From: Prorocentrum cordatum
Taxonomy: Eukaryota
Length of the DNA: 64,000 bases
Reading direction: 5' to 3'
Assembly (NCBI GenBank): GCA_963575745.1
Contig: CAUYUJ010000181.1
Coordinates: 496,001-560,000 of the forward strand
Shown here: positions 2,799 to 56,697 of the stretch, one piece after another
How the letters are laid out: each line of letters opens with the position of its first letter
Position numbering within the stretch: position 1 is the first letter of the stretch
Made by a program: the position numbers and the translations under genes
The notes under the pieces: model-generated
The model's database searches: none
What the model saw: the letters and a program-made list of their open reading frames with translations, nothing else
Told to the model about the DNA's origin: nothing

Positions 2799-3647
2799 TC
2801 AGTGGTGCACCTCCAGCACGCTGAGGTCTGTGCCGTGGCGAGGCGCCAGGCCGAAGAGAACGAGGAAGGCACAGACGCAGGCCGCGTTGAGCACAAAGTG
2901 CAGCAGCTGGGCCATGACCCAGTTCTTGAAGCCTTCGCCGAAGAACGCGCTCTCGTGATCCACCGGATCCTGCACCCAATAGAAGAAGACGGGGTGCTCC
3001 GCGTGAATGTCGTAGAGCGCCTCCGCCTGCTGCACCGCAAGACGAAAGCTGTCCCGCTGGTCGTCGCCGACCTGCCTCAGCCCGGCGCGGGCGGCCGGGT
3101 TGTCGTACTCGCCGCAGTGGAAGTCCGCCTGGGAAGACTTGCAGCAATTGATACCCACGGCCCACAGGTCGTAGGAGCTCAGCATCCCGCGGGCGTTCTG
3201 GGACGGCAGCCCGATGCTGGTGGTGATCGGCGCCACGCAGTACGTGTCCCAGCTCGTGAAGCTCATCGCCAAGTCGGTGGCTACGCGCGCACCCTCGGCG
3301 AAATACACCTTGCCAGCGTCCATCATGCGGACGCCGTTCACCTCCGCCGGGTCGATGTTGACGTACGTCTTCATGGACTCCAGGAAGAAGAACGGGTAGC
3401 CGAAGTGCCAGTAGCTCAGTTCCCCGAGCACCGCTGCCAGCACAAACGCCATCAAAAGCAGGAACGTCGAGAGGGCGAACCACAGGGTCAGGAGGCCTCC
3501 CCCCTCCTTCGCCCTCTGCGCGAACACGGCCGAGGCCGCCGCGGGCGCCAAACCCAGGGCGGCCAGGAACCAGACCGCCAGAGGGTGGCGGAAGTGGTAG
3601 CCGAAGCAGAGCAGCGTGGCGACATAGGTGAACACCAGAGGCGGGAC
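2799..3647 (-). CDS. Gene 1 exon 2: multi-pass membrane protein of an alveolate/dinoflagellate family (unknown function)
   Basis: 283 open codons with GC3 bias. Hydrophobic helices plus a Cys-containing domain (MMDAGKVYF, YCVAPI, YDLWAVGINCC, DFHCGEYDNP, FRLAVQQAEALY, HPVFFYWVQDP) and a C-terminal TM segment. Acceptor TGAG|GTC. Confidence 0.88.
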   Translation of the reverse strand, partial: VPPLVFTYVATLLCFGYHFRHPLAVWFLAALGLAPAAASAVFAQRAKEGGGLLTLWFALSTFLLLMAFVLAAVLGELSYWHFGYPFFFLESMKTYVNIDPAEVNGVRMMDAGKVYFAEGARVATDLAMSFTSWDTYCVAPITTSIGLPSQNARGMLSSYDLWAVGINCCKSSQADFHCGEYDNPAARAGLRQVGDDQRDSFRLAVQQAEALYDIHAEHPVFFYWVQDPVDHESAFFGEGFKNWVMAQLLHFVLNAACVCAFLVLFGLAPRHGTDLSVLEVHH

Positions 3648-3847
3648 CTCACGATCGGCGGACATTTCCATGTCCACGCCCTCGCGGTCTGGGCTCTGGG
3701 GCGCGATCCCGCGGATACGCGGTCGCACGGATACGTTCCCCGCGGGGCATCCGCAAACAAACGCCCCGTATCTGCAAGTTCGCGGCCCAGGGACACGGCC
3801 CGCGAGGCCGTGGACACGGATATGTGTTCTACCCACTGCACGAGGAC
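3648..3847 (-). mobile_element. 200-bp GT-AG intron formed by repeat family D, 5-bp TSD
   Basis: GGACC at 3644-3648 and 3844-3848. Interior is homologous to about 51035-51233 (shared GGATACGTTCC.CGCGGGGCATCCGC and CCGTGGA.ACGGATAT). Confidence 0.8.
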
Positions 3848-4069
3848 CAGCACCGCCAGCGCCACCCGGGTCAGCTGCGCAGCGGTCTGCACTTGCCCGC
3901 GGGGCGCCTTCCTCGGGGGCTTCCTGCCCTCCACGCCGCCGTACCCCGTGGCTGGCCGGGGTGCCTCCACGTACACCGGCGGCCCGCCGAGGGCGAGCGC
4001 GGACTCGATCTCGTCCACGCGCTTGCCACCCGCCGGGTGCCAGGTGGACTCCAGCGCCCCGCGATGCAT
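3848..4069 (-). CDS. Gene 1 exon 1
   Basis: ATG at 4069 and 74 codons ending ...TRVALAVL. Donor CTG|GT joins in phase 0 to VPPLVF, completing a hydrophobic helix. Confidence 0.72.
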
Positions 4070-5488
4070 CCCGGCACCCCGCCTGGCTAGGCGGACCGGA
4101 GCGGGCAGCGGGACTTCATTGCCGCTGGCTGCCTGTCGCGCGCCCGGCCCAGGCCTGCGACGGCTCTGATCCAGAGGCCACGGCCCGTGTCGTCGGGGGA
4201 ACGCGAGCGAACAGCAAGACAGCGACAGTGCGAAGAGCCAAATGACCCCGACGCAACCCCAAGAGAGGGTGCTCTATTTTCCGCAGCCGTCGATATACAC
4301 ACATAAATGTGTAGATAAACACATAGATGCAAACATATTATTGTCGTTGTATAAATATGTTCATAGATACATAGATATCGCCGTACATAGTTACATATGT
4401 GTATGCATGTGTGTATGTATGCATATACATATGTATGTACGTGTACGTATGGAATAATGAATCCAGGACTTCCTTGGCGCGTCATGCCATGCGCCTTGCT
4501 CCCGAGTAACACTGTTGCGATCAGGCGGGGCAGATGTCCCCCCTGGCAGAAGACCGTGTCCCCATGGTGGTCAGTTGCGTTTCGGCTGCTCCTGCGTATC
4601 CTTCTCTTCCGCATCCTTGTCTTCCCATGTTTTTCATTACTGCTACTGTTATTCGTATCCTTATTATCCTAATGATCATCATGATTGTCATACCCACTTT
4701 CCCTTCTTCTCCAAGTTTCTGGTTATGCTTCTCTTCTTCCTTTATTCTTCCCGTTTCGGGCGCCGCGCGTCACTGTTTCGGGGGTCATCATGAGTCGAGG
4801 CAGTCTTGGGGCCCTGTTGCGAGGCCTTGGGCCTCCCTTTCCTGTGGTCGTTCTGACCCCCTTTTGGCCCGATCTTCGGGGCCTCTTGGGCGGCCTCGGT
4901 CGCCCAACGCCAAGACAGCGTCACTCGGTTCTGGTCCCTCTTTCCTTCGAAGGAGCTCATGGCCAAGAATTGGGTGAGGCGGACTCGCGTCCGCCTGACC
5001 ATGCAAGCTGGCGCGCATTGCAACCGCCCGCTACTAGGGTCACAGTGACCTGATACCACTCTTAGCATACAGAGACATGCATAGATAATTCGACTTCAAG
5101 ACAAGGCCTAGGGAAAACGATGGCAATACATCAAATATGATGTTCTTTCTCGTCGCTCCACCACGGCTCGTCAGGATGCACCCTCCGCAACCATTTGAAA
5201 ATCCACACCGCATTGATGAAGCTTCGACATGAACACACCTGGACATTCGCAGAGAAACAGCGCCGGTCTACGTTCGGGGGCTGCCAGAAGTGATCCTGGC
5301 CCGAGGCGTCCCCAGCTTTTCGCCCCATTTGGTGACCTCTTGGGCCCTCTGGGCCCCGTGAGATAGTGGGTGCTCTCGAGGCCTCCTCCTGGGAAGCCAC
5401 GGAGAAGCTGGTGCCACCGTGGGCCAGAGCCGCTTCTGGTAACACCCGTCTTTTAGACCCCTCAGAGCCGACCGGCGCATCGAGTTAC

Positions 5489-5800
5489 TTGAGCAGGGAC
5501 CGACCGTCCCGGTTTTCCTCCTCCTCCTCCCCCTCCGCCTCCTCCTCCTCCTTCTCCGCCTCCTCCTCCTTCTCCTCCTCCTCCTCCTCCTCCTCCTCCA
5601 CCTCCTCCTCCTCCTACCGCAAAATGTTCTCACAACCCACAAAATATTCGAAGGACAAGGACAAGGTTCTCAGAACAGAGCCCCGACGTGTGCAAGCACG
5701 ACGGTCTCGGCCAGGAGAGGCTCTGAGAACAGGTCGCGCAGACCACAAGAGGTTCTTAGAACACTCTCTGGCGGGCCCATTGGCGAGCCAGGACGCCTCG
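5489..5800. mobile_element. MITE family A copy interrupted by a (CCT)n tract
   Basis: Starts TTGAGCAGGGACCGACCGTCCCGG and ends ...GGCGAGCCAGGACGCCTCG, like the copies at 11798, 42719, 53548 and 57458. Confidence 0.75.
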
Positions 5801-6027
5801 CTTCGCCCCTGCACGGCGAGGCATCCACGGAGGAAGCCGAGGAGAGCACGGCGCGGCCGCGCGGCGGCTCACGGCAGCGACCTCGAACCACAGGCAAGCG
5901 ATACTCACAGGAGGCCTCGTCTCGAGCCCTCCCCGGGGCATGTGGCCGGTGCCAGCCGCACCCCCCCGCTAGCCGGTGTTCTTCCTCCGGCTACCACGCA
6001 AGGAGCGGCCTATCTAGAGAGCAGAAA

Positions 6028-8570: not shown

Positions 8571-8616
8571 TGTAGCTCTTCCGCACATCCGCACCACGGC
8601 CAGTGCAGAACAAGAC

Positions 8617-11639: not shown

Positions 11640-11797
11640 TTCGTCGGGCCTGTCCCCCTGCAGGGGGGTTTTTGGACGAAAAATGAAACATAGTCAAAAC
11701 ATGCCCCAGAATGGCGAAAACACATTCGGAAAATTGTCCCCAGACTATTTTTCGACTATTTTTGAAGACTCCTCCTGCAGAGGGACAAGCCCGACTT
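11640..11797. mobile_element. MITE family B copy (a partial copy also lies at about 11309-11433)
   Basis: GTCGGGCCTGTCCCCCTGCAGG...CCTGCAGAGGGACAAGCCCGAC inverted termini. Confidence 0.8.
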
Positions 11798-12030
11798 TTG
11801 AGCAGGGACCGACCATCCCGGCATTCTTATAGTCCTACCACGACATGTTCTTAGAACCCAGCAATGTTCTAAGAACAGAAACAATGCTCTTAGTACATGA
11901 ACCCGATGTGTGAAAACAAGACAGACTCAACCAGAAATGTTCTAAGAACATTTCGTGGAAACCACAAAAGGTTCCTAGAACATTGTTCGGTAGGGCTATA
12001 GGCGAGCCAGGACGCTTCGCCACCGCTTGA
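11798..12030. mobile_element. MITE family A copy abutting a family B end
   Basis: TTGAGCAGGGACCGACC...GGACGCTTCGCCACCGCTTGA, with internal GTTCTTAGAAC motifs. Confidence 0.82.
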
Positions 12031-12117
12031 CGAGGCAGTCCTTCGCCCGCTCGAATCCTCCGCCCGGCTCGCGGCGTGCAGATCGCACGGCAGGCCCCCT
12101 GAATCCCAGGGCCAGGC

Positions 12118-12305
12118 TTATGTCGGGCGTGTCCCCCTACAGGGGGATTTTCGACGAAAAATACAAAAAACAAAACACTCCAAAAAGGTCAGACAATATT
12201 CAAAACATAGTCCCCAGACTATGTTCGGATTATGTTTGGACTATTTTAAAAGTATTTTTTATTGTTCGTCGAAAATCTCTTTGTAGGGGGACAGGCCCGA
12301 CTTAA
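12118..12305. mobile_element. MITE family B, 8-bp TSD
   Basis: TTATGTCGGGCGTGTCCCCCTACA / TGTAGGGGGACAGGCCCGACTTAA. GGCCAGGC at 12110-12117 and 12306-12313. Confidence 0.88.
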
Positions 12306-12390
12306 GGCCAGGCCTCGTCCTCGACCTCCCTGGGCGCTGCCCGCGTCGGCGGGGGCAGGGCGACGGGGAATGGGGAATGCCTCCGGGAGG

Positions 12391-12589: not shown

Positions 12590-12599
12590 GGAGGGGCGC

Positions 12600-13540: not shown

Positions 13541-13559
13541 GGTCACCAGGATCCTCGAC

Positions 13560-14600: not shown

Positions 14601-15433
14601 GGCTCGGAGCAGCTGCGCAACTTCCAACTGCGCTGCTCCAAAAGTCGACCAGAGACCTGAAAATGGCGAGGAAAAGGAGGAGGTGGTGGCGGGTCAGCAG
14701 GAGGATGAACAGGACAGGGGGGGCAGAAGGAAGATAGGGGAGGCCCGGCGGGCCAGCGGCAACATTTTGAGGCCAACGCTGCAGCGGCAACACCAGCTCG
14801 AGATACCGAAGGAGTTCCAATCGAAACGAAAACCTAGGAGAGACCACCTCGTGAGATCCTGTGCGTCAAGAGAGCAATACGCAGAGGGGACGGGCTACTC
14901 CCTGGCCCCCTCCGGGGTGGAGGGGAATGTAGCACGCATATCAAGCCAGGTACGCCCGCAGCACCAGATCTGACAGATCTGACATCCTGCCATTCCCTCC
15001 CAGCCCTTCCCGTTGCGCTGGTCTTTCCCTATCGCGTACTGGGAGAAACGGGGAGGCTGGGCGACCAGGCAAAGTTCAGCAGCGGCCGCACGCGAGGGGG
15101 AGGCAGAGGCTCCAGTGTGGCCACCGCTGCGCCACTACCCCTAAAGATCGAGGGGCCAAAAGGCGGTGGCAACATTAGGGGTGCGTCCTTCGGAATGGGG
15201 GAACATTCAAGATCGGCATCGAAACAAAGGCGATACCAATCCTGAGGATGGAGGTGAGAGCCGTGAGGCCGCAACGCAGCGCGAGGCGAGGATGCTGGGG
15301 GAGAAGCGGCCAAGGCGGCGCAGAAGAGGCACCACGACCCGTCGGCCACCCCGCGCTGCAGGACGGCGCAAGCTTCGGCCAGAGGGCGAAGAGGACCAGC
15401 CGCGTACCAGGCGCTGGGGCTGAGTCCTAAGAG

Positions 15434-19250
<3,817 letters not shown>

Positions 19251-20202
19251 AGGAGGAGGAGGAGGAGGAGGAGGAGGAGAAGGAGTCCCAGTGTCTGGGG
19301 CAGCCGCGTCCCAGGGTCAGCCGCGGGCCAGAGCCCCAAGAGGCGCCAAAGAAGGTCCAGAGGGTCCGAGAGGAACCCTAGGAGAGGCCCCGGGTGATCC
19401 TGGAGGGCCCCACCCCTGTGTCCCCCAAGTGGCTCCCCCGGGAGCTGGGAAAATACGCAGTCTAAAAGAACTGCCGCACCTCCGCTCGACATTTCACCGC
19501 GAAGTCGGTGGTTGGCCGTAGGACGTGTTTGATACGATACGGCTTCCCCTGTCTGTTCCATGATAAATGTTTTTCCTGCTCTCTGCCGACTCCCTCTCTC
19601 CCTCTCGTTGTCTCTCTCTCTCTCTCTCTCTTTTATGTGTTTATGTCTCTCTCTATATATACATATATATATATATATCCTTCGATCTTGCGCTCTCACC
19701 CACACATACACACACTCTCTCTCTGTCGCTCCACACACAGTATCTCTCTCTGTTTCTGTACTCTCTCTCTCTCTCTTTCTCTCGCCATCGTTTTCCTAGA
19801 CCCTAGACTCTACTCTCTCTTTATCTCTCTCTCTATCTCTCTTTCTCTCTGACTCTCTACTCCCTCTAATCTCTCTGCTCTGGGATCTGGAAACCCAGTG
19901 GGCCACTGGGATCGGGGGGACACTGTCACAAAGATCCCGAACCAAGTACAGGAACCCAACCACCACGGAAATCCAACAAATGCCCATCGTTGCAATTCCA
20001 GGGCACTAGAAACACGAAAGTGGGAAGTTAGCCGACTACTGAACTGGATGTGGTAAGCTTGCCAACTCATTGCAGCAGTCACGACGACCCACTCAATGCA
20101 AACGCACATACAAGATTAGTGTTTCACTCTTCCTTCAGTGAGGTGGAGATGGAGATTTGCCCAGTGTGGCGACATGTTTGCGATATCGCGACTGCCCCGG
20201 TC

Positions 20203-20376
20203 CTCGAACGCGTAGAAGTCCCTGACGGGCCATCTGAAAAGCCGCATCAGGAACACGATGATGAACAGCTCGTGCGATACTATGACCATGTTGTCGGTGT
20301 ATCTCGACTCCCACTTCCGGTAGAGGGACTCCAGGAAGAGCCCGGCCCGCTGGAACAAGTCCGCGGGGCTCTCGCC
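20203..20376 (-). CDS. Gene 2 exon 3
   Basis: GESPADLFQRAGLFLESLYRKWESRYTDNMVIVSHELFIIVFLMRLFRWPVRDFYAFE, containing the GES and VSH motifs. Acceptor ACAG|GG, donor GAG|GA. Confidence 0.9.
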
Positions 20377-21000
20377 CTGTGCTCGCCATGTGGGGACGGG
20401 GGCCCCGAGGGAAACGCGGCCCAGCCCTCGGGGCCTTCCTCGGGCCAGGAGATGTCGAGGGGCGGTCACGTCGGAGGGGGTGGCCACTTCCACCAAGGAA
20501 AGGGAGCCCCCTGGACCCCTCAGGCCCTCCTGGGACTCCAAAACACGGCCGAGCGAGCTCAAAACCTAATCGATTCTCAATCCTCACTCCTCCTCGATCC
20601 TCGATTTCAGCGAAGCGACGGTGACCCCCCTAATGGCAACACCCCTTGACACTGCCCGAACCAATTCATCCCGAGCATTTGTTTGACAATCCCGGGGGCC
20701 GTGAACAGGGGCAGGGGCAATCGACACCGAGTAGGCAAGGAAGCAGGGAGGAGGAGGAGGAGGAGGAGGAGGAGGAGGAGGAGGAGCAGGATGTGAGGGG
20801 CGAAGGAAAAATTAGGAGCAGCAGCGGAACGAAGGAGGATGAGGAGGAGGAGGAGGAGGAGGAGGAGGAGGAGAGAGGACGACAAGTATGAGAAGCACCA
20901 ATGAGCGGAGGGACGAAGCCGGGGGGGAAAGAGAAAAGGGAGCAGGAGGACGAGGACGAGGCCGGGAAAACGAGGCGTGAGAGCGTCGCAAGCCCAGGGC

Positions 21001-23599: not shown

Positions 23600-26026
23600 T
23601 TCGGACATGAGGGGGTGAGATCGCAATGAAGCAGGGAGCCCCCCACCAGGACATCGGTCTCGGTTTCGTCTTCGTGCCGCGCTTGCGGGCGAGGCGAAGC
23701 TGCGTGGGTGGGCGAGAGGAGTGGGCCCCCCCCCTGGCTGGGGCACTTCCAGGCCAAGGGACCGCCCCAAACGGCTTGCGCGGCGGTGGCCATGGGTGTC
23801 CCGCGGGCGTCCCGCGGGCGACCCGCCTGTGTCCCGTGGGTGCCCCGTCGTTGGCCCGACGGTGCCCCGTCGGTGTCCCGTCGGTGTCCCGTAGTGAGGT
23901 CGACCGCGAGCTCGATCGTGAGATCGAGAATGGAATCAATCATGAGGTCGATCGTGAGGCCGATGGTGAGACCGATGGTGAGATCGATCGTGAGAACGAC
24001 AGTGAGATTGATAGAAATATCGATGGTCGCAAGATCGACGGTGAACGGAAAAGCGAGAGCCATGGTGAGATCGATAGTGAGGGCGATCGAGTGAGATCGA
24101 TAGTGAGATCGACAGTGAGACTGACAATGAGAATCATGGTGAGGTCGATCGTGAAATCGATGGCGAGATCAATAGTGAGCACGATCCCGAGATCGAGAAT
24201 GAAGTCGACAGTGAAATCGACTGTGAGATCGATGGTACTGTCGATAGTGAGATCGATAATACGATCCGTAGTGAGATCGCCTGAATTAGACGCTCGCTCC
24301 TCCCCCCCCGAACATCCTTATCACCCGAAGGGAGGTCGCCCCGGAAGTTGGCGGGTGAGATCGCAGTGGAACGGACAGCCCCCCACCGGAAAATCGGTGT
24401 TGGCGCCGTGTTCGTGTCGTGCGCGCGAGGCGGAGCTGCGTGGGCGCGCGACCCCGCCGTCGCTGAGGCGATTCGGATGCAACGACTGCCCCTGCGCCCC
24501 CCGGTGGGCGTGCGGTGGCCCGGAGTGTCCCGCCGTGGTGTCAAGTGGTGTCCTGTGGGTGTCCCGTCGGTGTTCCGTCGGCGGTGGGCGGGCAGTGGCC
24601 GAGGGTGCCCCGCCTTGGTAGCGATAGTGAAGTCGATAGTGAGATGGATCACGAGATCGCTGGAATGGAAGCGGATAGTAATATCAAAAGGGGCATCGAC
24701 AGCGAGGTTGGTTGTGACACTGTTTGTGAGATGGATAGTGAGATCGATAGTGGAGATCGGTAGCAAGATCGATAGTGAGATCGATAGTGAATATCTACTC
24801 TGATATCTATAGTGAGATCGAACGCAAGACCTACGGTGAGATCGAGCGAGTGTGATCGATCCTGTGAGGTCGGTGGTGGGATCGATCGAGTCAGATCGAA
24901 AGCTCGGACGATAGAGGCATTAAATCACAGCGCAACATCGTCATCACGCGTCGTCGCTAACATCGTCATCATCCCCATCGCATTTGCCAGCAATTCGTTC
25001 ATTCCCCTGAACCCCCCAACCGCCTTATCACCTGGAGAGTGGTCGCATAGGTATCGGAAGTTGGAGGGTGAGATTGCAAGGGACTGGAGAGCCCCCAACC
25101 GGGAAATCAGTGTCCCTGTGTTGTCCCGTCGGAGTCCCGTGATGAGATTGATAGTGAGACCGATGGTGAGGTCGATAGTGAGATGGATAGTGGGATCACT
25201 AGTGAGGTCTAGAATGAGATCTAGAGTGAGAACAAAAGTGAGATTGATCGAGTGGGAGCGAGGGTGGGGTCGATCGAGTGAGACCGATAGCGAGATCGAT
25301 CGTGAGATTGATACTGCGATAAATAGTGAAGTCGATGATGACTTGATTGTGTTCTGATTGGTGCCCGATTGGTGTCACGATTGGTGTGCCGATTGGTGTC
25401 CTGATGGTGCCCCGGTGGCGTTTCGATGGTGTCTCGGTGGTGTCCTCGTGATGTCCAGAGAAGTGCCCCGAGTGGTGTTCCGATGGTGTCCCCACTGGTG
25501 TCCCGATGAATGTCCTGACGGTGTCCTGGTGTTGTTTCGATGGTGTCCTGGCGGTGTCTATCATGAAGCTTGGGGGCGGGGATCGCAGAGAACCCGATGC
25601 GCCAAACGGCTTTCAATGACAGCATCCCCGGCCACGGGATCAACTGAGGCGCCGCATCGTCGCATTGCCATCGCAGCGCAGTGGTGGTGGCATTGATTTG
25701 GCCCGATGCTGTTCCGATGGTGTTCCGATTGTACTCAGCACTACCGCCGTTGCAGTCGCCGCCACACTCATCACCACTGCGGCTATCACCTTGCCGTCAG
25801 CGACCAGCGATCACACCTAGCACTCAACATCACAGCACAATAGTGGAGGCACTTATTTGGCCTCATGGTGCCCTGGAGGTGTCTTAATGGTGAGGTCGAC
25901 CGAGTTAAACCGGTAGTGGGACCACATCGCGACGCAGCATCGTCACCACGCGTCGTCGCCAACTCGAGGGCGCATCACGAGCATACTCATCAACTCATCA
26001 ACTCATCAACTCATCAACTCGTCAAC

Positions 26027-34135: not shown

Positions 34136-36935
34136 AATTATCCCGGCAAAGCAACCTAACAGCGATGTGTAGAAGCATATCTGAAAGCATTTCCCTTAAG
34201 ATTCAGATGAAAATCCAGTTGTAGAATTCTGCTGTTCTCGCAGTCGTAGTCGCATTCGCGATGACAGTCGCAGCGGCAACGGCAGTCGCAGTCACAGCCT
34301 CAGCCTCAGCCTGCCTCAGCCTCAGCCTCAGCCTGCCTCAGCCTCAGCCTGCCTCAGCCTCAGCCTCAGCCTGCTTCAGCCTCAGCCTCAGTCTGCCTTC
34401 AGCCTCGGCCTCAGCCTCAGCCTGCCTCAGCCTCAGCCTGCATCAGCCTCAGCCTCAGCCTCAGCCTGCCTCAGCATCAGCCTGCCTCAGCCTCAGCCTC
34501 AGCCTGCCTCAGCCTCAGCCTCAGTCTGCTTCAGCCTCAGCCTCAGTCTGCCTTCAGCCTCGGCCTCAGCCTCAGCCTGCCTCAGCCTCAGCCTGCCTCG
34601 GCCGCAGCATCAGCCTGCCTCAGCATTCAAAATGTGGCCCAGGAATGGAGTTCTGGGAACTAGAAGAACACGAAGTGGCCTACAGTTGGCTCCGGGCATT
34701 CAAAATCATGCCCAGGAATGGAGTTCTGGGAACTTGAAGAGCACGAAGTGGCCTACAGTTGGCTCCGGGCATCCAAAATGTGGCCCGGGAATGGAGTTCT
34801 GGGAAATCGAAGAGCACGAAGTGGCCTACAGTTGGCTCCGGGCATCCAAAATGTGGCCCGGGAATGGAGTTCTGGGAAGTCGAAGAGCACGAAGTGGCCT
34901 ACAGTTGGCTCCGGGCATCCAAAATGTGGCCCGGGAATGGAGTTCTGGGAGCACCAAGAGCGATTTTGCGAGGATGTCCAAAGCGATTTCGGCTTCGGCG
35001 GCAGCCTTCCGGGTCCCGCCCAGACCCCCCTGAGGAGTCATGATGCTCTCTTTTGAGACCAGTAGAAACCTATCAGCAAGAGCTGTTAGGTAATTATCCC
35101 GGCAAAGCAACCTAACAGCGATGTGTAGAAGCATATCTGAAAGCATTCCCCTTAAGATTCAGATGAAAATCCAGTTGTAGAATTCTGCTGTTCTCGCAGT
35201 CGTAGTCGCATTCGCGATGACAGTCGCAGCGGCAACGGCAGTCGCAGTCACAGCCTCAGCCTCAGCCTGCCTCAGCCTCAGCCTCAGCCTGCCTCAGCCT
35301 CAGCCTGCCTCAGCCTCAGCCTCAGCCTGCTTCAGCCTCAGCCTCAGTCTGCCTTCAGCCTCGGCCTCAGCCTCAGCCTGCCTCAGCCTCAGCCTGCATC
35401 AGCCTCAGCCTCAGCCTCAGCCTGCCTCAGCATCAGCCTGCCTCAGCCTCAGCCTCAGCCTGCCTCAGCCTCAGCCTCAGTCTGCTTCAGCCTCAGCCTC
35501 AGTCTGCCTTCAGCCTCGGCCTCAGCCTCAGCCTGCCTCAGCCTCAGCCTGCCTCGGCCGCAGCATCAGCCTGCCTCAGCATTCAAAATGTGGCCCAGGA
35601 ATGGAGTGGAGTTCTGGGAACTAGAAGAACACGAAATGGCCTACAGTTGGCTCCGGGCATTCAAAATCATGCCCAGGAATGGAGTTCTGGGAACTTGAAG
35701 AGCACGAAGTGGCCTACAGTTGGCTCCGGGCATCCAAAATGTGGCCCGGGAATGGAGTTCTGGGAAGTCGAAGAGCACGAAGTGGCCTACAGTTGGCTCC
35801 GGGCATCCAAAATGTGGCCCGGGAATGGAGTTCTGGGAGCACCAAGAGCGATTTTGCGAGGATGTCCCAAGCGATTTCGGCTTCGGCGGCACCGCCCCGG
35901 GTCCCGCCCCCTCCCCCCTGTGGAGTCATCTGCTGCTCTCTTTTGAGACCAGTAGAAACCTATCAGCAAGAGCTGTTAGGTAATTATCCCGGCAAAGCAA
36001 CCTAACAGCGATGTGTAGAAGCATATCTGAAAGCATTCCCCTTAAGATTCAGATGAAAATCCAGTTGTAGAATTCTGCTGTTCTCGCAGTCGTAGTCGCA
36101 TTCGCGATGACAGTCGCAGCGGCAACGGCAGTCGCAGTCACAGCCTCAGCCTCAGCCTGCCTCAGCCTCAGCCTCAGCCTCAGCCTCAGCCTGCCTCAGC
36201 CTCAGCCTCAGCCTGCTTCAGCCTCAGCCTCAGTCTGCCTTCAGCCTCGGCCTCAGCCTCAGCCTGCCTCAGCCTCAGCCTGCATCAGCCTCAGCCTCAG
36301 CCTCAGCCTGCCTCAGCATCAGCCTGCTTCAGCCTCAGCCTCAGCCTGCCTCAGCCTCAGCCTCAGTCTGCTTCAGCCTCAGCCTCAGTCTGCCTTCAGC
36401 CTCGGCCTCAGCCTCAGCCTGCCTCAGCCTCAGCCTGCCTCGGCCGCAGCATCAGCCTGCCTCAGCATTCAAAATGTGGCCCAGGAATGGAATTCTGGGA
36501 ACTAAAAGAACACGAAGTGGCCTACAGTTGGCTCCGGGCATCCAAAATGTGGCCGGGAATGGAGTTCTGGGAACTCGAAGAGCACGAAGTGGCCTACAGT
36601 TGGCTCCGGGCATCCAAAATGTGGCCCGGGAATGGAGTTCTGGGAAATCGAAGAGCACGAAGTGGCCTACAGTTGGCTCCGGGCATCCAAAATGTGGCCC
36701 GGGAATGGAGTTCTGGGAAGTCGAAGAGCACGAAGTGGCCTACAGTTGGCTCCGGGCATCCGAAATGTACGCCGGGGATGGAGTTCTAGCAGCGCCAAAA
36801 GCGATTTTGCGAGGATGTCCCAAGCGATTTGGGCTTCGGCGGCAGCCGTTCTGGGTCCCGCCCCGACCCCCCTGTGGAGTCATCTGCTGCTCTCTTTTGA
36901 AACCACTAGAAACCTATCAGCAAGAGCTGTTAGGT
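34136..36935. repeat. Three tandem copies of a 0.9-0.95-kb unit containing (CCTCAG)n and 73-bp sub-repeats
   Basis: AATTATCCCGGCAAAGCAACC recurs at 34136, 35092 and 35982. The 73-bp period is seen at 34788/34861. Confidence 0.95.
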
Positions 36936-42718: not shown

Positions 42719-42950
42719 TTGAGCAGGGACCGACCGTCCTGGCATTCCTATAGCCCTACCACGACATGTTCTCAGAACAAAAACAATGTTCTTATAGCAT
42801 AACAACCCCGATGCGATAAAACAAGACAGACTCCGCCAGAAATGCTCTAAGAACATGTCGTGGAAGTGTTAAGAACATTTCGTGGAAACCACAAAAGGTT
42901 CTTAGAACATCGTTTGGTAGGGCTATAGGCGAGCCAGGACGCTCCGCCGC
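42719..42950. mobile_element. MITE family A copy
   Basis: TTGAGCAGGGACCGACCGTCCTGGCATTCCTATAG...GGTAGGGCTATAGGCGAGCCAGGACGC. Confidence 0.8.
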
Positions 42951-43005
42951 TTCGCGGCGCCAGGCTGGGTCTCAGCGTTCTGCTCCTCGCCCTCCTCGGA
43001 AGCCA

Positions 43006-43261: not shown

Positions 43262-43422
43262 TTAGGTCGGGCATATCACCCTACAGGCGGATCTTGGCCA
43301 AATGATACACCCAAGTCAAAAAATGCGACAACAGTGTCAGACAAATCAAACGTCGTCCCCATATCATTTGTGTACTTCCAACCTGTGAATCGTACTCCTG
43401 CAGAGGGGCACGCCCGACTTAA
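43262..43422. mobile_element. MITE family B copy (no TSD retained)
   Basis: TTAGGTCGGGCAT...GCACGCCCGACTTAA. Confidence 0.78.
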
Positions 43423-50812: not shown

Positions 50813-51017
50813 CTTACTGTGCGACTTGGCTGCACGCGACGCGCAACCCACAGCGTGCTGACACCGAGCTCAACGCGCAGATTGAAAATGCACTTCTTCG
50901 CGGTGCTTTCGCCGAGACATCGGTCAACGCGTGCCGAGATGACACGCGGCGTGATGACACGGACGTCTTGAACACGGTACGTGTTGCGTTGCAAACGGGC
51001 GTATCAGGGCAGCTAAG
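50813..51017. mobile_element. Repeat family E, free copy (CTTA...TAAG)
   Basis: 205 bp. Its 3' part is homologous to the 204-bp element at 54961-55164 (GACACGGACGT..TGAACACGG.ACGTG.TGCG..ACGGGCGTATC). Confidence 0.7.
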
Positions 51018-51034
51018 GCTTGGCGCGTCTTGGG

Positions 51035-51233
51035 CTCATCATGGGCGGCGAGCGTGTCTACACCCATGCCCTGGCGATGTGGGCTCAAGGGCGCGACCCC
51101 GTGGATAAGTACGACCGGTTGCAATGGATACGTTCCGCGCGGGGCATCCGCGAATACACGCCCCGCATCTACAAGGTCGCGGCCCAGCGGCCCAGCCCGC
51201 GAAGCCGTGGATACGGATATGGTTCCCGCCCGA
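51035..51233. mobile_element. Repeat family D, free copy
   Basis: Homologous to the gene 1 intron 3648-3847. Confidence 0.75.
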
Positions 51234-52637
51234 GTCCAAAGAGGGAGATGAGGGGGAGTGGTACGGGAAGAGCTGGGAGGAGGGAGCCCAGAAAGGAAGA
51301 CAGAGAGGGAGGGATGACGATGAGGGAGGGAGGCGCGTCGGGAGGACAAGGCGAGGGACGAGGAGGACGGAAAGGGGGGGGGTATGGCGAGAAGGTTCGC
51401 ATCGCGAACCGAAGCTGTTTTGCAGGCGCCTTCGGCGTCTAGCCTCTCACACAGCGTGGTATTTTCCACAAGCTGTCCGTGCAACTGCTATCGTGTGTGC
51501 GAGAGGAGGGAAGAAGAAGGGATACTATCCTGCACCTTCTCCTACTCCTCCTCCTTTTTCGCCTCCTCCTCCCCATCATCACCGTCACCATCGTCAACAA
51601 CAGCACCAACCTTATCATCATCGTCGTCATCATCATCCGCACCATCATCATCGTCGTCATCATCAGCATCGTCAGCATGACGATGATGATGATCATCAGC
51701 ATCATGATCATCACAATCAACTGCATCACCACCATTGGACAATTATCATCAGCATCGCCATCGCAATCATCACCACCATCACCATGACTATGACCATTAC
51801 CATGAGCATGACCATGACAATTACCATCTCCATCACTAACCTCATCTACATCAGCATCAGCATCATCACCAGCATCACATTCGATATCATCATCATCCTC
51901 ATCAGCAGCATCAGCATCAGCATCAACTAATCATCAGCATCAGCAACAGTAACGTCATTATCATCATCAGCATCATTTCCATCATTATCAACACCATCAT
52001 CATCATCAGCATCATCATGATCATGATCCTGTGCCCGAGTCATACATCTGCACCAGAAGCAACCTCATCACCATCATCATAATACATCAACGGCAATGAT
52101 CTTGTGTCCAATCCGGGGAACTGGAGAATGCATGCTCCTCCGTCCGGTGTCCCTCCTGGTCCTCCTCTTTGGGTGTGTGTGTGTGGTCTGCGCCGCGGCT
52201 GATGCTAAACAAAAACTTCCTCCTCCTACCCTTCTTTCTCTCTCGCTCTCTTTCCCTCGAGCCTCATTCTTGGGGAGACGGACAGCTTACTGCTCAACCT
52301 CCAGCTCCACAAGTCTAGGCCTCCGACTACTCCAGGGAGCGCCTACTCCAACCGACGCCTCCCTCTCTCCTCCCTCCCGACCTCCCTTCTTCCCCCTCAC
52401 TCCTCTATTGGTTCCTGCTTTACGCTTTCTCCTCCTTCTGCACCTCCTCCTCCTCCTCCTCCTCCTCCTCCTCCTCCTCCTCCTCCTCCCCCTCCTCCCC
52501 CTCCTCCCCCCCTCCTCCTCACAGAAGCAATGGGGGAACTTGGGTGCAATGCACTGCGCCCGCGGCCGCGGCGGAGTGCCGTTAATTCCGTGAGCGAGCC
52601 GGTCCGCCAAGAGAACCTGTTGAACTCGAGGCTGGGC

Positions 52638-52787
52638 TTAGGTCGGGCGTGTCCCCCTACAGGAGGAATATTCAAAAATAGTCCGGAAGTCATGTGAGGA
52701 CGATTGGTTGACTGGTCTTGACCATGCTTGCATATGTTTGATATCTTCGGCAGAAAATCTGCCTGTAGGGGGACATGCCCGACCCAA
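52638..52787. mobile_element. MITE family B, 8-bp TSD, just downstream of the gene 3 stop
   Basis: TTAGGTCGGGCGTGTCCCCCTACAGG / CCTGTAGGGGGACATGCCCGACCCAA. GGCTGGGC at 52630-52637 and 52788-52795. Confidence 0.9.
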
Positions 52788-52813
52788 GGCTGGGCGAGCA
52801 CGCCCCGTCCTGC

Positions 52814-53543
52814 TCAGATCTGCAGGGAGAGCATGCAGGCGTCGGCCAGGTACTCCATCGCCTGGGCCGAGGGCGCCCGGCCCGCGCTGCCCTCCTCCTC
52901 CCAGGGCTCCGGGATCTTGTTGTGCCTGGCCACCGCCGAGGACTTGCTGCTGCCGGCGCGGCTGCACGCCGAGGGCAGCCGCACCCTCGGGGCGCTGCCG
53001 CTCGGGTCCGGGTCCGAGGCCCTCCCGGCCGTCTCGGCGCTGACGAGGCTGTCGCTGTCGGAGTCGCTGGGCACGTCGCGGCGGCGCTGCGGGCGGTCGT
53101 CGAAGACCTCCAGGATCTCCTCGTCGCCCGCCCGCTCGAAAGTGCCGGTGAGAAATCCTTCGGGCTGCTGTGGTTCGACCTCGGGCTCGGCGGCCTGCGG
53201 CTCCACCTCCGGAGGCTCACGGGACGCCCAGCCCTCGCCCTCTGCGTGCGCGCGGCTCAGGTGCCTCCACCAGAGCATCGCGACCACGAGCACACAGAAC
53301 ATGGTCACGGCACAGGCACCCAGGCTGGCGACGAAGAAGAGCACCCTCTCGTCCAGGGCGTTGATGCCACTGACGGCGGCGTCGTAGTTCATGGTCACCG
53401 TGGTGTGGGTCGCTGTGAGCGAGGTACCCGTCTGCGTGGTCGATGTTAGCGAGGTCTCTGTGGTGGCTTGCCTTCCGATGGTCGTGGTGAACAGGCGCGG
53501 TGCTCTGGTCACCTCCACGGCCTCGAGGTCCAGCCCGGAGCTC
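52814..53543 (-). CDS. Gene 3 exon 4: Thr-rich stalk, transmembrane helix and acidic cytoplasmic tail
   Basis: Acceptor ATCAG|G. Reads SSGLDLEAVEVTR...VLFFVASLGACAVTMFCVLVVAMLWWR...LSLQI*. Confidence 0.8.
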
Positions 53544-53781
53544 CTGATTGAGCAGGGACCGACCGTCCCGGCATTCCTATAGGCCTACCACGAAATATTC
53601 TTAGAACCCCAAAATGCTCTAAGACCAAAAACAAGGTTCTTGGAACATAAGCCCGATGTGTTAAAACAAATCAGTCCCAGCCAGAATTTGTCTAAGAACA
53701 TCTCGTGGAAACCACGAAAGGTTCTTGGAGCACTGTCTGGTAGGCCTATAAGCGAGCCGGGACGCTTCGCCACTGCTCGAC
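53544..53781 (-). mobile_element. 238-bp GT-AG intron formed by MITE family A, 5-bp TSD
   Basis: Element 53548-53780 has imperfect TIRs of about 40 bp. CCTGA at 53543-53547 and 53781-53785. Splicing restores FLRSSG. Confidence 0.85.
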
Positions 53782-53886
53782 CTGAGGAACTCCGCCCGCA
53801 GGGCGGCCTGCGGGCTTGCCGCCAGAGCCAGCAGGGCATCCGCGTCGGCCGCTCGCGCGATGATCAGCTCGTACGCGACCAGCACG
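53782..53886 (-). CDS. Gene 3 exon 3
   Basis: 105 nt, phase 2-2, VLVAYELIIARAADADALLALAASPQAALRAEFLR. Lies between two MITEs. Confidence 0.78.
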
Positions 53887-53892
53887 CTGGAG

Positions 53893-54741
53893 TCAGGTCG
53901 GGCACGCCCCCCACAGGCGGAGCTTAGACGAAAGATCACAAAAATAGTCGAAACGTGCTCCAAAACGGTGAGAAGCGTAGTCGAAAATTATCGTCTCCAG
54001 ACTGTTTTTTCTTATACTATTTTTGAACATCTTGGACGCCCGAAATGGGCACAGAAACAATGGGCACAATGCCCAACGGCAAATGTTGTCCCGAACCAAC
54101 AGCGGCCGCTGTTGGGCAGGCGGCCTCCTGTCTCGAATGGACACGGGCCGCGGCGGCGCGGACGGCGAGCCCTGTTCAAAATGGACAGGATCCGCTGTTT
54201 GTCATTGTTCGGTAGCCGGGCAAGGGATGCTAAATCCGTGGCTGCTAAAATCAATCTCCGGGAAGTTGTCTTCGTCCTTCCGGGAAGAAGCCCAGTGACT
54301 GTTTCGCGTACCGCGCCTCATTCCGGGAAGTTGTTTTTTCCTTCCGGGAGGGCCGTTTTAGCAGCCACGGTTTTAGCAGCCCTCGCCCAGCTCCCGAACT
54401 GTACCCACTCTTTCCGTGCCCATTTCGCTGGTGCAGAAACGCTCCTCCTGCAGAGGGACGTGCCCCAAAACCGTGAGAAGAGCAGTCAAACAAAAAAGTC
54501 GTCCCCAGACTGCCTTTTTGACTGGTTTTGCAAGGGCTCCCAATTTCGCGCTTCGCGCTCCGCGAAGCGCGAAGCGCGAATACCTTCGCGCTCTCGCGCC
54601 GACCCCCGGAGGGAAAAAAGAGGACGAGGAGGAGGGGGAGAAGGAACGAGGACCACAAAGCGCGAAGCGCGACTAACTTCGCGCCCTCGTGGGAGCCCTT
54701 GTTTTGAGCACTCCTCCTGCAGAGGGACGTGCCCGACTCAA
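53893..54741. mobile_element. MITE family B with nested insertions, forming gene 3 intron 2 (predicted 53887-54737), 8-bp TSD
   Basis: TCAGGTCGGGCACGCCCCCCACAGG / CCTGCAGAGGGACGTGCCCGACTCAA. CGCTGGAG at 53885-53892 and 54742-54749. Confidence 0.8.
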
Positions 54742-54955
54742 CGCTGGAGCGGCCGGCCGCTCCCCGCGGAGCTGCCTCGCCGAGCCGCCGCGTGGCGCCC
54801 CCGTCGGAGACCGCGAGCCTCGCGAGCTCCGAGGGCTCCACGCCGAAGGCCGCGGCGAGCACCCCCCGCCACAGGGCGGCCGAGCCGGCGTCGATGCCGC
54901 CGGCGGCGGAGCCGTCCAGCGTGGCGCGCACGGCCGACGTGAGCGCGTTGGTCTC
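54738..54955 (-). CDS. Gene 3 exon 2
   Basis: ETNALTSAVRATLDGSAAGGIDAGSAALWRGVLAAAFGVEPSELARLAVSDGGATRRLGEAAPRGAAGRSSV. The exact donor position is inferred. Confidence 0.75.
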
Positions 54956-55167
54956 CTCCGCTTATGCTGCCCCGATGCGCCGCACGCAACACGTGGCGAG
55001 TTTTGCTACGGAGCTCGACACGTGGACTGGTTAAACGCAGGTCCGACGCGATGCGTTGGCCAAAACGTGGGCCAAGACGTGGAGCCAACACGCAACGCAT
55101 CGACACGGACGTACTGAACACGGGACGTGCTGCGATTCAATACGGGCGTATCGAGACAACTGAGCTC
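54956..55167 (-). mobile_element. 212-bp GA-AG intron formed by family E, 8-bp TSD
   Basis: CTCCTCCG at 54953-54960 and 55165-55172. Splicing restores NISAE|ETNAL. Confidence 0.8.
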
Positions 55168-56697
55168 CTCCGCTGAGATGTTCCCCGCCAGCCAGAAGCA
55201 CTCGGAGACACCGACGGTGACGCCGTCCAGGCACGAGAAGGAGCCCACCGCGATCATGTCATCGGGGCAGGCGGCCCAGCAGCGCTCCCCGCTGGCCAGG
55301 TTTGCGGTGCAGTTGCTGGGGCCGCCAGCTTCATCCAGCGCGTTGCAAGTGGCCTCCGCCAGAGTAGCATCGTCAAGTTTCGCAGCAAGCTGCAGCTGGA
55401 GGTCGATCGTACTTCGGAGCGGCAGCCCGAACTCGCCCAGGGCGAACTCCAGGCCACAGCGGTCCACGCAGCAGGCGCTGGTGTCAAAGTCGTTGGGGGC
55501 ACAACCAGTGCAGACTGAACCGCAAGGGCATGCAGTTGTGTTGCTCCAGTCGCAATATATGTGGGTCGACGTTGTCGAGGTGGTCGTACTGGTTGTACTT
55601 CTGGTCGAGCTGGTCGTGCTGGTCGTGGTGGTCGACAGCGATGTACGCGTGATGGTGTCCGACTTCGTGGTGGCCGACATTGTAAACGTCGAGGTGACAC
55701 ACCCCTTGTCCATGCACGTGCAACACCAACTCTTCTTAGGGTTGGACCATCCAAACTCCGCAGTTTCCAACCCTGCATCGCAATCATACAAAGGGCACCC
55801 GTAACCACTGTTCCTGCAACACCACTCAAGCTCCACCATGCTCCACAGCGTGCATGCACTCTCCTGGTCCATGGCTGACTGGCAGCCCGACTCTACGGTG
55901 AAACTGCTCGTGGAAACAGTGGAGGTGGTAACTGACGTTGTGGTCATGGTTTGGGACACGCTCGTCGAGGAAGAGGCGCTCGTCGTGGAGACGGTCGTGA
56001 TTGATGTTGCAGTCCGGCTTGTAAGCGTTTCTGTCACAACCGTGGAAGTGGCCGTCTCCGTCGGGCATCCCATGCCTTCGTTCTCGCAGCACCACTGTAG
56101 CTTCCAACCAGACCAAGCTGTGGCGAGATCTTCAAAATCGGCTGTGCAGTCAAACGGGCCGCCGAAGGGTGTGGTCGAGGTGGTCGTGGTGGTCGAGGTC
56201 GAAGTCGTGGTCCTTGTAGTGGTCACTGTCGTAGACGTCGTGGTGCTAAGCGTGCTTGTTGTGCGGGTGGTGGTGCTGGAGGTGGACGTCGATGATGTGG
56301 CCGATGTAGTGGAAGTGGTGGACGAGGTGGTGGTTTCGCAGCATTGCATCTGGTCTGGTGGCTCGCAGGCTTGCGCGGAGGGTAACATGGAACTGGGCCT
56401 CATGCTCAGGCCGCTGGGGCACGCTTCGCTGGAGCAGGCGTAGCACTGCATGGACTCCAGCGCGGGGCCCACCCACGAAGGCACGGCGGGGATCCCCCGC
56501 AGCCGCGCCCGCAGCTCGCCGCGGAGCAGTTCGGGGTCCCCAGGCAGCCCGAACAGCTCGAGCACGCCCTCCACTGTGGTCGGCTCGGCGCCCTGGGAGC
56601 TCACGCGGCGCAAGGGCGCGCCACCCGGAGCGCCGCCGTATGCGGCAGACTCTGCCGCTGCCAGAAGCAGGAGAAGCCGCAAGGTCGCGGCCCCCAT
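55168..56697 (-). CDS. Gene 3 exon 1: signal peptide, Thr-rich tracts and Cys/Trp repeats (cell-surface protein)
   Basis: MGAATLRLLLLLAAAESAA signal-like start (alternative ATG at 56724). Repeats FDCTAD..WSGWKLQWCCENEGMGC, WSMVELEWCCRNSGYGC and YDCDAG..WSNPKKSWCCTCMDKGC. Confidence 0.85.

What the first reader, a model, noticed from the sequence alone, without database searches (positions are those of the whole stretch)
3644..55172. Multi-family Introner system: all four introns of two genes are transposon insertions whose TSDs provide the splice sites
Seen in sequence: genes 1 and 3 have four introns (3648-3847, 53544-53781, 53887-54737, 54956-55167). Each belongs to a different dispersed repeat family (D, A, B, E), each is bounded by a 5- or 8-bp direct repeat, and each has non-intronic sibling copies in this window. 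Removing them joins the flanking segments into continuous, sensible reading frames. Established: Introner elements have been reported in dinoflagellates. Inference: ordinary MITEs here become introns whenever the target site plus the element end yields GT/GC/GA and AG, helped by relaxed donor rules. These particular families may be undescribed.
Basis: partly seen in the sequence, partly recalled or inferred. Interest (0 to 1): 0.88.

Follow-up and report, generated by a model that had tools for sequence, protein, structure and literature searches.

The report
Transposon-made introns in a red-tide dinoflagellate
Five introns in two genes of the red-tide alga Prorocentrum cordatum are each exactly one small transposon plus its target-site duplication, a known way of making introns, but two of them are missing from the message although they have no legal splice signals.

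Summary
The window is Prorocentrum cordatum nuclear DNA (100% match to a named protein; GC 0.599). The observation largely holds. All four intervals are bounded by direct repeats of 5, 5, 9 and 10 bp, and all have sibling copies in the window. Removing them gives open frames colinear with transcript-derived relatives.

RNA contigs from 4 of 4 runs (4 studies) lack I2 (238 nt) and I4 (212 nt) exactly as predicted. In each, only one register gives a legal pair: GT..AG and GA..AG.

The RNA lacks 857 nt, from one target-site duplication (TSD) to the other, not 851. None of the 10 possible registers has a GT/GC/GA..AG pair.

It belongs to the same 9-bp-TSD family as I3 and is also removed TSD-to-TSD without legal sites.

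I1 has no direct RNA evidence.

The mechanism is the known Introner one. Multi-family TSD co-option is described in Polarella, and pattern-defined introner elements are reported for 2.4% of P. cordatum introns. Verdict: new members of a known kind.

The open point is whether the two family B elements are spliced non-canonically or the mRNAs come from insertion-free gene copies.

The parts
2799..3647 (-). Gene 1, coding exon 2 (282 aa plus stop TGA at 2799-2801)
   Evidence: 552 homologues, all dinoflagellate-type 'transmembrane protein' where named; best hits 89-90% identical.
3648..3847 (-). Intron I1 (200 nt, GT..AG, phase 0) = family D element 3649-3843 plus one copy of the 5-bp TSD (GGACC on the + strand at 3644-3648 and 3844-3848)
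   Evidence: The junction LAVL|VPPLVF is colinear with P0001 and P0002. The element folds as a hairpin, z -5.4. No RNA was laid on it.
3848..4069 (-). Gene 1, coding exon 1 (start codon 4069-4067; 74 aa)
2110..2278 (+). Family B MITE about 520 nt downstream of the gene 1 stop, with a perfect 9-bp TSD GGCTAGCCT (2110-2118 and 2270-2278)
52629..52795 (-). 3'UTR intron of gene 3. 158 nt are removed; the register is ambiguous over the 9-bp TSD AGGCTGGGC (52629-52637 and 52787-52795). It is a family B MITE (terminal repeats at 52642-52663 and 52762-52783). No G[TCA]..AG register exists.
   Evidence: joint 52628>52787 in 4 of 4 runs; run X1 also holds the retained form at depth 11.7 against 38.5.. 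Hairpin z -9.0.
52814..53543 (-). Gene 3, last coding exon (stop TGA at 52814-52816)
53544..53781 (-). Intron I2 (238 nt, GT..AG, phase 2) = family A MITE 53548-53780 plus the 5-bp TSD (CCTGA at 53543-53547 and 53781-53785)
   Evidence: joint with 5-nt slide in 4 of 4 runs; loose ends at 53547, 53548 and 53780 mark the element ends. Hairpin z -9.9.
53782..53886 (-). Gene 3, coding exon 3 (border towards I3 ambiguous by 9 nt)
53884..54749 (-). Intron I3 with both TSD copies. 857 nt are removed in RNA, with the register ambiguous over the 9-bp TSD ACGCTGGAG (53884-53892 and 54741-54749). It is a family B element (terminal repeats at 53897-53910 and 54716-54737) enlarged by nested repeats: an inner terminal-repeat element at 54041-54427, and a 24-nt duplication at 54442-54465 and 54711-54734.
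   Evidence: joint 53883>54741 skips 857 in 4 of 4 runs; registers are GT..GC, CG..AG, GC..CA and seven others, none legal.. Hairpin z -12.9.
54750..54955 (-). Gene 3, coding exon 2 (border towards I3 ambiguous by 9 nt)
54956..55167 (-). Intron I4 (212 nt, GA..AG, phase 0) = family E element plus a 10-bp direct repeat (54953-54962 and 55165-55174)
   Evidence: joint with 10-nt slide in 4 of 4 runs. P0124 reads LAGNISAE|ETNALTSA. Weak hairpin, z -1.0.
55168..56724 (-). Gene 3, coding exon 1 (start codon 56724-56722; 519 aa). It is 100% identical to the first 519 residues of P0121 (600 aa), named as an unnamed protein product of Prorocentrum cordatum.
11798..12030 (+). Family A sibling (83% to I2), abutting a family B MITE at 11643-11795
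42719..42956 (+). Family A sibling (70%, with an internal insertion)
57458..57690 (+). Family A sibling (79%), about 0.7 kb upstream of where the gene 3 RNA contigs end
5489..5801 (+). Family A sibling interrupted by a (TCC)n microsatellite
12110..12313 (+). Family B MITE with an 8-bp TSD GGCCAGGC (12110-12117 and 12306-12313)
43266..43418 (+). Family B MITE without a recognisable TSD
50835..51225 (+). Family E sibling (50835-51017) and family D sibling (51039-51225), lying about 20 nt apart

Best explanation
The window is nuclear DNA of the dinoflagellate Prorocentrum cordatum. Two minus-strand genes carry five short, non-autonomous, hairpin-forming transposon-like elements of four families (A, B twice, D, E). 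Each interruption equals one element plus one copy of its target-site duplication, so cutting anywhere inside the duplication restores the uninterrupted gene. These are Introner-type intron gains.

For D (I1), A (I2) and E (I4), one register and only one gives a pair legal for dinoflagellate spliceosomes. In I1, GT comes from the TSD, and AG from the last element base plus the first TSD base. In I2, the G of GT is the last TSD base and the T is the first element base, and AG lies inside the TSD. In I4, both GA and AG lie inside the repeat. Ordinary splicing therefore removes them. This is shown at contig level for I2 and I4 and inferred for I1.

The two family B elements have a 9-bp TSD with a central CCAG, and 22-nt terminal inverted repeats. 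Both are also absent from the mRNA exactly TSD-to-TSD, but no register is legal. I think it somewhat more likely than not that they are cut out of the RNA at non-canonical sites set by the TSD (CCAG|C...CCAG|C, or GC..CA), with the terminal hairpin bringing the ends together. That step is inferred, not shown.
For: Species. Exon 1 of gene 3 is 100% identical to P0121, named Prorocentrum cordatum. Window GC is 0.599, against a published genome mean of 59.7% (passage).

Each intron is element plus TSD. Slides are 5, 5, 9, 10 and 9; chance is 0.022 for 5 or more and 0.008 for 9 or more.

Legal registers. There is exactly 1 of 6 for I1 (hand enumeration), 1 of 6 for I2 and 1 of 11 for I4. Chance gives any legal register in 0.076, 0.078 and 0.134 of random intervals.

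RNA. In 4 of 4 runs from 4 studies, a single contig of 1270-1282 nt with 0 other letters joins across I2, I3 and I4. All 4 also join across the 3'UTR element. The interior of I3 has depth 0 in X1 where exons have 80. The runs hold about 0.65 of the words of 52800-56750, which is the exon share.

Proteins. P0124 (100% identical, transcript-like) has the I4 and I2 junctions exactly. Four of 4 paralogue proteins (P0122, P0123, P0126, P0127) are colinear at all three sites and read SSV(L/V)(V/I)AY at I3, the single-TSD state. P0001 and P0002 are colinear across I1.

Transposon hallmarks. Family A has 5 copies with terminal repeats of about 40 nt, and many RNA contigs diverge exactly at its ends (table 7). 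The family B terminal-repeat pattern has 11 hits against 0 expected. TSDs of 8-9 bp are present in 4 of 6 B copies. Hairpin z-scores are -5.4 to -12.9 for D, A and B.

Literature. The same mechanism, with 3-, 4-, 5- and 8-nt TSDs and splice sites recruited from TSD and element ends, is described for 15 classes in Polarella (section read).
Against: - A cut inside a TSD gives the same mRNA as an insertion-free gene. Contigs alone cannot prove that the inserted copy is the one expressed.
- I1 has no RNA evidence, and no 100% protein match was found for gene 1 among proteins of 155-494 aa.
- TSDs are not recognisable in 0 of 3 full-length A siblings, 0 of 1 D sibling, 0 of 1 E sibling and 2 of 6 B copies.
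- E has only one diverged sibling (68%) and no convincing terminal repeat or hairpin (z -1.0).
- Copies differ by 17-32%, so the gains are not demonstrably recent.
- No genome was available. I therefore could not count genome-wide copies that coincide with introns, and could not check empty sites in orthologue DNA.
- For I3 and the 3'UTR element, no legal register exists. A second transcript-like protein, P0124, implies an 845-nt removal that is also illegal (GT..GA, AG..TG, GA..CT or TG..CC).
Confidence: 0.8

Rival explanations
1. Insertion-free copies are what is expressed. The window's genes, or at least the copy carrying I3 and the 3'UTR element, are insertion-bearing duplicates, alleles or strain variants. 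The mRNAs come from near-identical copies that never had the elements, or that lost them by excision.
For: - Removal is exactly TSD-to-TSD, with no legal splice pair for I3 or the 3'UTR element.
- The canonical 851-nt GT..AG option was not among the listed joints or pieces of the 4 runs; those tables are cut.
- P0124 reads SSVDSSVLVAY, which is TSD + TGA + TSD. That looks like a classical excision footprint.
- Paralogues are mosaic. P0126 and P0123 share identical stretches with gene 3, so near-identical copies or gene conversion exist.
Against: - There are 0 other letters over 1270 nt and 0-2 over about 1100 nt in 4 of 4 runs. This sits oddly with I3 being a decayed, nested composite and family B copies differing by 5-14% in their terminal repeats.
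- The cluster of the 100%-identical NCBI protein is recorded on 1 contig only.
- Run X1 holds both the retained (11.7) and the removed (38.5) 3'UTR form, as expected for partial splicing.
- I1, I2 and I4 each have a legal register, against chance of about 8e-4 for all three. That fits selection for spliceability.
- The reading frames are intact.
Confidence: 0.3
2. The TSD-to-TSD joints at I3 and the 3'UTR element are reverse-transcriptase template-switching artefacts across a hairpin flanked by direct repeats. On this view the elements stay in the RNA.
For: Nine-nt direct repeats flanking strong hairpins (z -9.0 and -12.9) are the known substrate for this artefact (recalled from the literature, not from a call). 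Retained and removed 3'UTR forms coexist in X1.
Against: - The interior of I3 has depth 0 in X1, against 80 in the exons, and the same single joint appears in 4 of 4 runs from 4 studies. An artefact should leave most reads unswitched.
- Retaining I3 would end the frame early; the unspliced gene 3 stops at residue 572, inside I4.
Confidence: 0.05
3. I4 (family E) is not a transposition. It is filler DNA captured during repair of a staggered double-strand break, which also leaves short direct repeats.
For: E has no clear terminal inverted repeat and only a weak fold (z -1.0). It has one 68% sibling without a TSD. The 10-bp repeat is longer than any TSD seen for the other families here.
Against: The sibling covers 187 of 202 nt and ends where E ends, as for a discrete mobile unit. 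The model itself is recalled from work on Daphnia, of which I saw only search listings.
Confidence: 0.1

Closest known systems
Introner-like elements of Polarella glacialis and Symbiodinium (Roy et al., bioRxiv 10.1101/2020.10.14.339549; Results read in full)
   Same: - Several unrelated families sit in one genome, with different TSD lengths (3, 4, 5 and 8 nt).
- The intron equals element plus TSD.
- Splice sites are recruited from the TSD, the element ends or both.
- GA donors are common in young introns, and a G follows the 3' AG.
- I2 (TSD TCAGG; G of the TSD plus the first element base as donor; AG inside the TSD) works like their class 12 (NNAGG).
   Different: - The species and order differ (Prorocentrum).
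- The elements show no tested sequence relation to the Polarella classes.
- A 9-bp TSD family is not among the lengths they list.
- Two of the five introns here have no GT/GC/GA..AG register at all.
Introner elements reported for P. cordatum itself (Dougan et al. 2023, PMC10666404; passages and supplementary note seen)
   Same: Same genome. [quoted passage not shown]
   Different: They used a pattern search (inverted repeats of 8-20 nt, direct repeats of 3-5 nt within 30 nt of intron ends) on annotated introns only, and their pipeline accepts only GT, GC or GA donors. I saw no families, TSD lengths or splice-site derivation in the parts I read. Their tables S1 and S2 were not among the 2 supplementary files held. 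I3 is mis-modelled in the public protein P0121: a GC..AG intron of 846 nt (53887-54732) reproduces its frameshifted end exactly.
Non-canonical introner elements of Amoebophrya A25 and A120 (Farhat et al. 2021, PMC7789003; passages seen)
   Same: Direct repeats overlap both borders, so the cut site is ambiguous. Inverted repeats just inside form a hairpin that joins the exon ends. There is no GT-AG. This matches I3 and the 3'UTR element.
   Different: Their direct repeats are 3-5 nt, against 9 here. They describe a parasitic early-branching lineage in which over 60% of introns are non-canonical. Here RNA-level removal is not yet separated from insertion-free copies.
Identically repeated intron boundaries of dinoflagellates (Mendez et al. 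2015, PMC5032977; abstract and passages seen)
   Same: Two to 9 bp are repeated at both intron borders and appear once in the mRNA.
   Different: Those repeats always contain GG, and usually AGG, at the splice point. The two family B repeats here have CCAG followed by C. No transposon origin was proposed there.

Membership tests
Introner / Introner-like element | The intron consists of the mobile element plus one TSD copy, with nothing else | tested here: met
   Five of 5 introns: 195+5, 233+5, 848+9, 202+10 (or 204+8) and 149+9 nt.
Introner / Introner-like element | Removed from mature RNA | tested here: met
   I2, I3, I4 and the 3'UTR intron are bridged by contigs in 4 of 4 runs. I1 was not tested, because read laying is capped at one stretch. 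Contigs cannot exclude an insertion-free source copy.
Introner / Introner-like element | Splice sites supplied by the element ends and/or the TSD | tested here: inconclusive
   Met for I1 (hand enumeration), I2 and I4. Not met for I3 and the 3'UTR element, where 0 of 10 registers each are legal.
Introner / Introner-like element | A family of many similar introns across the genome | not testable with these tools
   No genome is held. In the window, only family B supplies two introns. The other copies of A, B, D and E have no known exon context.
Introner / Introner-like element | Intron absent at the same site in orthologue or paralogue DNA | not testable with these tools
   Only proteins could be compared: 4 of 4 paralogue proteins are colinear with the empty site. 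Their genomic loci could not be fetched.
MITE (non-autonomous terminal-inverted-repeat DNA transposon) | Terminal inverted repeats, a TSD of fixed length, multiple copies, no coding capacity | tested here: met
   - Family B: 22-nt terminal repeat, 11 hits against 0 expected, TSD of 8-9 bp in 4 of 6 copies.
- Family A: terminal repeats and 5 copies, but a TSD only at I2.
- Family D: palindromic arms, 2 copies.
- Family E: not met.
- No transposase family among the 133 ORFs scanned. These are the ORFs of 140 aa or more that passed an entropy filter, out of 225.
Amoebophrya-type non-canonical introner element | Non-GT-AG borders, with a direct repeat over both borders and an inverted repeat inside | tested here: inconclusive
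   The anatomy is met for I3 and the 3'UTR element. The direct repeat is 9 nt, outside their 3-5 nt range. Whether removal happens at the RNA level is unresolved.

The most novel reading that the evidence does not exclude
A free-living core dinoflagellate removes MITEs of one family (9-bp TSD with a central CCAG, 22-nt terminal hairpin) from its mRNAs exactly TSD-to-TSD without any GT/GC/GA..AG pair. This would be Amoebophrya-like non-canonical introner splicing in Prorocentrum. Annotation pipelines restricted to GT/GC/GA-AG cannot see it, and it already produces at least one truncated public gene model.
Probability: 0.5. Interest if true: 0.7.

Novelty: new member of a known kind. Interest (0 to 1): 0.45.

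Why it matters
Diverse transposon families create introns in dinoflagellates by borrowing splice sites from their target duplications, and P. cordatum was already reported to carry such elements.

What it adds is family-level anatomy for P. cordatum. The families have TSDs of 5, 5, 9 and 8-10 bp. Each coding intron equals element plus TSD exactly. One gene gained four introns this way.

The part worth following is family B. Two independent insertions in one gene are missing from the mRNA to the base, yet have no legal splice sites, and the public gene model is broken at one of them. If DNA reads show that only the inserted state exists, non-canonical introner splicing is not confined to parasitic Amoebophrya. 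An unknown share of P. cordatum gene models, built with GT/GC/GA-AG only, would then be wrong at such sites.

Tried and rejected
- Whole genome: none is held, so there are no genome-wide copy counts.
- The repeat finder on the whole window was swamped by microsatellites. I replaced it with blastn in scripts.
- Metagenome scan for relatives of gene 3 gave 1 locus (L001, 74% identity) that ends before the junctions, so it was of no use.
- A third protein search with exon 2 ('longer') returned only 4 proteins already seen.
- Viral contigs had 0 matches to the family A or family B terminal repeats. This gives no hint of a virus-borne copy, but only exact pattern matches were sought.
- Earlier findings of this scan: nothing for this genome or these sequences. 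Two notes on giant-virus palindromic introns from other genomes did not bear on this.
- Pfam on 133 ORFs found only two exons of a histidine-phosphatase gene and no transposase.
- Insertion into pre-existing introns was considered and rejected, because no intronic sequence is left over beyond element plus TSD in any of the 5.
- TTGA as a target-specific TSD of family A was considered and rejected for I2. The mRNA and the paralogue proteins carry a single CCTGA and no extra codons.
- Depth in read laying is per contig and was not used to rank expression. Stretches of 52540-57900 without cover are not taken as evidence.

Full report
**Source.** Exon 1 of the larger gene is 100% identical to a protein that NCBI names 'unnamed protein product [Prorocentrum cordatum]' (P0121). 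The smaller gene has 552 homologues; those that carry names are dinoflagellate transcripts or proteins. Window GC is 0.599, and the published genome mean is 59.7% (Dougan et al. 2023, passage). No whole genome was held for the window.

**Gene models.** Both genes lie on the minus strand. Gene 1 has its start codon at 4069-4067, exon 1 down to 3848, the claimed intron at 3648-3847, and exon 2 at 3647-2799. The joined product has 356 aa. Its junction LAVL|VPPLVF is colinear with P0001 and P0002, two transcript-derived proteins of 356-357 aa that are 89-90% identical. Gene 3 runs from 56724 to the stop at 52814-52816. Left unspliced, gene 1 reads into a frameshift and gene 3 stops at residue 572.

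**Direct repeats.**

| Intron | Repeat (minus strand) | Slide |
|---|---|---|
| I1 | GGTCC | 5 |
| I2 | TCAGG | 5 |
| I4 | AGCGGAGGAG | 10 |
| I3 | CTCCAGCGT | 9 |

In 200,000 random intervals, a slide of 5 or more has frequency 0.022 and of 9 or more 0.008, figures inflated by the many microsatellites.

**Families.**
- Family A has five copies with terminal repeats of about 40 nt.
- Family D has one near-full sibling at 51039-51225 (78%).
- Family E has one near-full sibling at 50835-51017 (68%). The D and E siblings lie only about 20 nt apart.

The outer ends of I3 carry a 22-nt terminal repeat, GTCGGGCAYGTCCCYCTRCAGG. This pattern has 11 matches in the window against 0 expected and defines a MITE family of about 150-180 bp. 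Its copies are at 2110-2278, 11643-11795, 12110-12313, 43266-43418 and 52629-52795, plus I3. Four of these six have a TSD of 8-9 bp, all with a central CCAG or CTAG. The left 148 nt of I3 align with these MITEs at 70-71%. I3 is therefore a family B element swollen by nested repeats.

Siblings of A, D and E show no recognisable TSD: 0 of 3, 0 of 1 and 0 of 1. D, A and both B introns fold as end-to-end hairpins (z -5.4, -9.9, -9.0, -12.9 against mononucleotide shuffles). E does not (z -1.0).

**RNA.** Twenty runs from 8 studies hold about 0.53-0.67 of the sampled words of 52800-56750, close to the exon share of that stretch. I laid four runs from four studies, all as Logan contigs, on 52540-57900.

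| Joint | nt skipped | Slide | Runs |
|---|---|---|---|
| 53542>53781 (I2) | 238 | 5 | 4 of 4 |
| 53883>54741 (I3) | 857 | 9 | 4 of 4 |
| 54952>55165 (I4) | 212 | 10 | 4 of 4 |
| 52628>52787 (3'UTR) | 158 | 9 | 4 of 4 |

In each run, one contig of 1270-1282 nt with 0 other letters carries the first three joints. The fourth joint lies 27 nt past the stop codon. Run X1 also holds its retained form (depth 11.7 against 38.5). Many contigs diverge exactly at 53547/53548 and at 53780, which marks the ends of family A.

**Registers.** I1 and I2 each have one legal register of six (GT..AG); I1 was enumerated by hand from the print. I4 has one of eleven (GA..AG). Random intervals offer a legal register with probability 0.076, 0.078 and 0.134, so all three together would be about 8e-4. 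In all three the letters come from the TSD plus the element's terminal bases, and a G follows the AG. This is what Roy et al. describe for Polarella.

For the 857-nt removal of I3, none of the ten registers is legal (GT..GC, CG..AG, GC..CA and seven others). The same holds for the 158-nt 3'UTR removal (CC..AG, GC..CA and others). Both share the form CCAG|C...CCAG|C.

**Other forms at I3.**
- P0124, a 100% identical transcript-like protein, reads SSVDSSVLVAY. This is reproduced only by an 845-nt removal, which is again illegal (GT..GA, AG..TG, GA..CT, TG..CC).
- The public model P0121 ends ...SSVESACWSRTS. It is reproduced exactly by a GC..AG intron of 846 nt that shifts the frame. The annotation pipeline accepts only GT, GC and GA donors.
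- Four of four paralogue proteins read SSV(L/V)(V/I)AY, the single-TSD state.

**Reading.** The Introner mechanism explains I1, I2 and I4 fully. It is published for dinoflagellates in multi-family form and, by a pattern search, for 2.4% of P. cordatum introns.

For the two family B elements there are two live readings. One is non-canonical removal at the RNA level, as in Amoebophrya introner elements. The other is that the mRNAs come from insertion-free or footprint-bearing copies.

I lean to the first, for four reasons:
- The contigs match the window without a single difference over 1270 nt (0-2 over a further ~1100 nt), although I3 is a decayed nested composite.
- The 100% protein cluster is recorded on one contig only.
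- One RNA library holds both states of the 3'UTR element.
- Two same-family, same-orientation insertions behave alike.

It remains unproven. Any cut inside a TSD mimics an empty site, and the 845-nt form looks like an excision footprint. A reverse-transcriptase jump is unlikely for I3, because its interior has depth 0 where exons have 80.

**Limits.**
- I1 was not checked against RNA, because only one stretch could be laid.
- All RNA evidence is from contigs, which drop rare forms.
- The 'non-intronic' status of the siblings rests only on the absence of flanking coding signal.
- Tables S1 and S2 of Dougan et al. were not held.
- Whether anyone has described these families rests on two searches (7 papers with 'introner' and 'Prorocentrum', 6 listed; 34 papers with 'introner' and 'dinoflagellate', 20 listed). 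Of the papers these searches found I read passages or sections of five (Dougan 2023, Roy 2020, Farhat 2021, Gozashti 2025, the 2024 review); Mendez 2015 was reached through the review's reference list.

Noticed in passing
window 20119-20565 and 31743-32450, minus strand: Two ORFs match consecutive parts of Pfam His_Phos_1 (profile positions 111-170 and 1-96). This is probably one gene whose exons are about 11 kb apart, with the gap filled by tandem arrays.
   Followed up: no
window 50835-51225: The only siblings of families E and D lie side by side, about 20 nt apart and in the same orientation. They may be two halves of one larger parent element.
   Followed up: partly
window 53887-54732 (public model P0121): The public P. 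cordatum protein for gene 3 (600 aa) is truncated. Its model uses a GC..AG intron of 846 nt at I3, which shifts the frame, whereas the RNA contigs support a product of 867 aa.
   Followed up: yes
proteins P0123, P0126: Paralogue proteins are mosaics. P0126 is like P0123 in its first third and identical to gene 3 afterwards. The last ~100 residues of P0123 are identical to gene 3. This points to gene conversion among copies or to chimeric transcript assemblies.
   Followed up: no
window 15300-19000: A long tandem array with 9- and 12-nt periodicity, in a stretch of low GC (0.40-0.43) and strong G-over-C skew (+0.26 to +0.55) inside an otherwise 60% GC window.
   Followed up: no
window 34136-36930: Three tandem units of about 900-950 bp, each holding (CCTCAG)-like 22-nt and 73-nt sub-repeats (families D13, D14, D18).
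   Followed up: no
window 23880-25280 and 30190-31040: Arrays built on GTGAGATCGAT (12-nt period) at 23.9-25.3 kb, and on its reverse complement TCGATCTCAC mixed with CGGGACACCA (10-nt period) at 30.2-31.0 kb. These are inverted arrays about 5 kb apart (families D15, D16, D19, D20).
   Followed up: no
window 56836-57193: Another dispersed repeat just upstream of gene 3. It has very high summed contig depth (up to 1572), many different flanks at 57159 and 57170, and A>G at 57062 in all 4 runs, coming from other copies.
   Followed up: no
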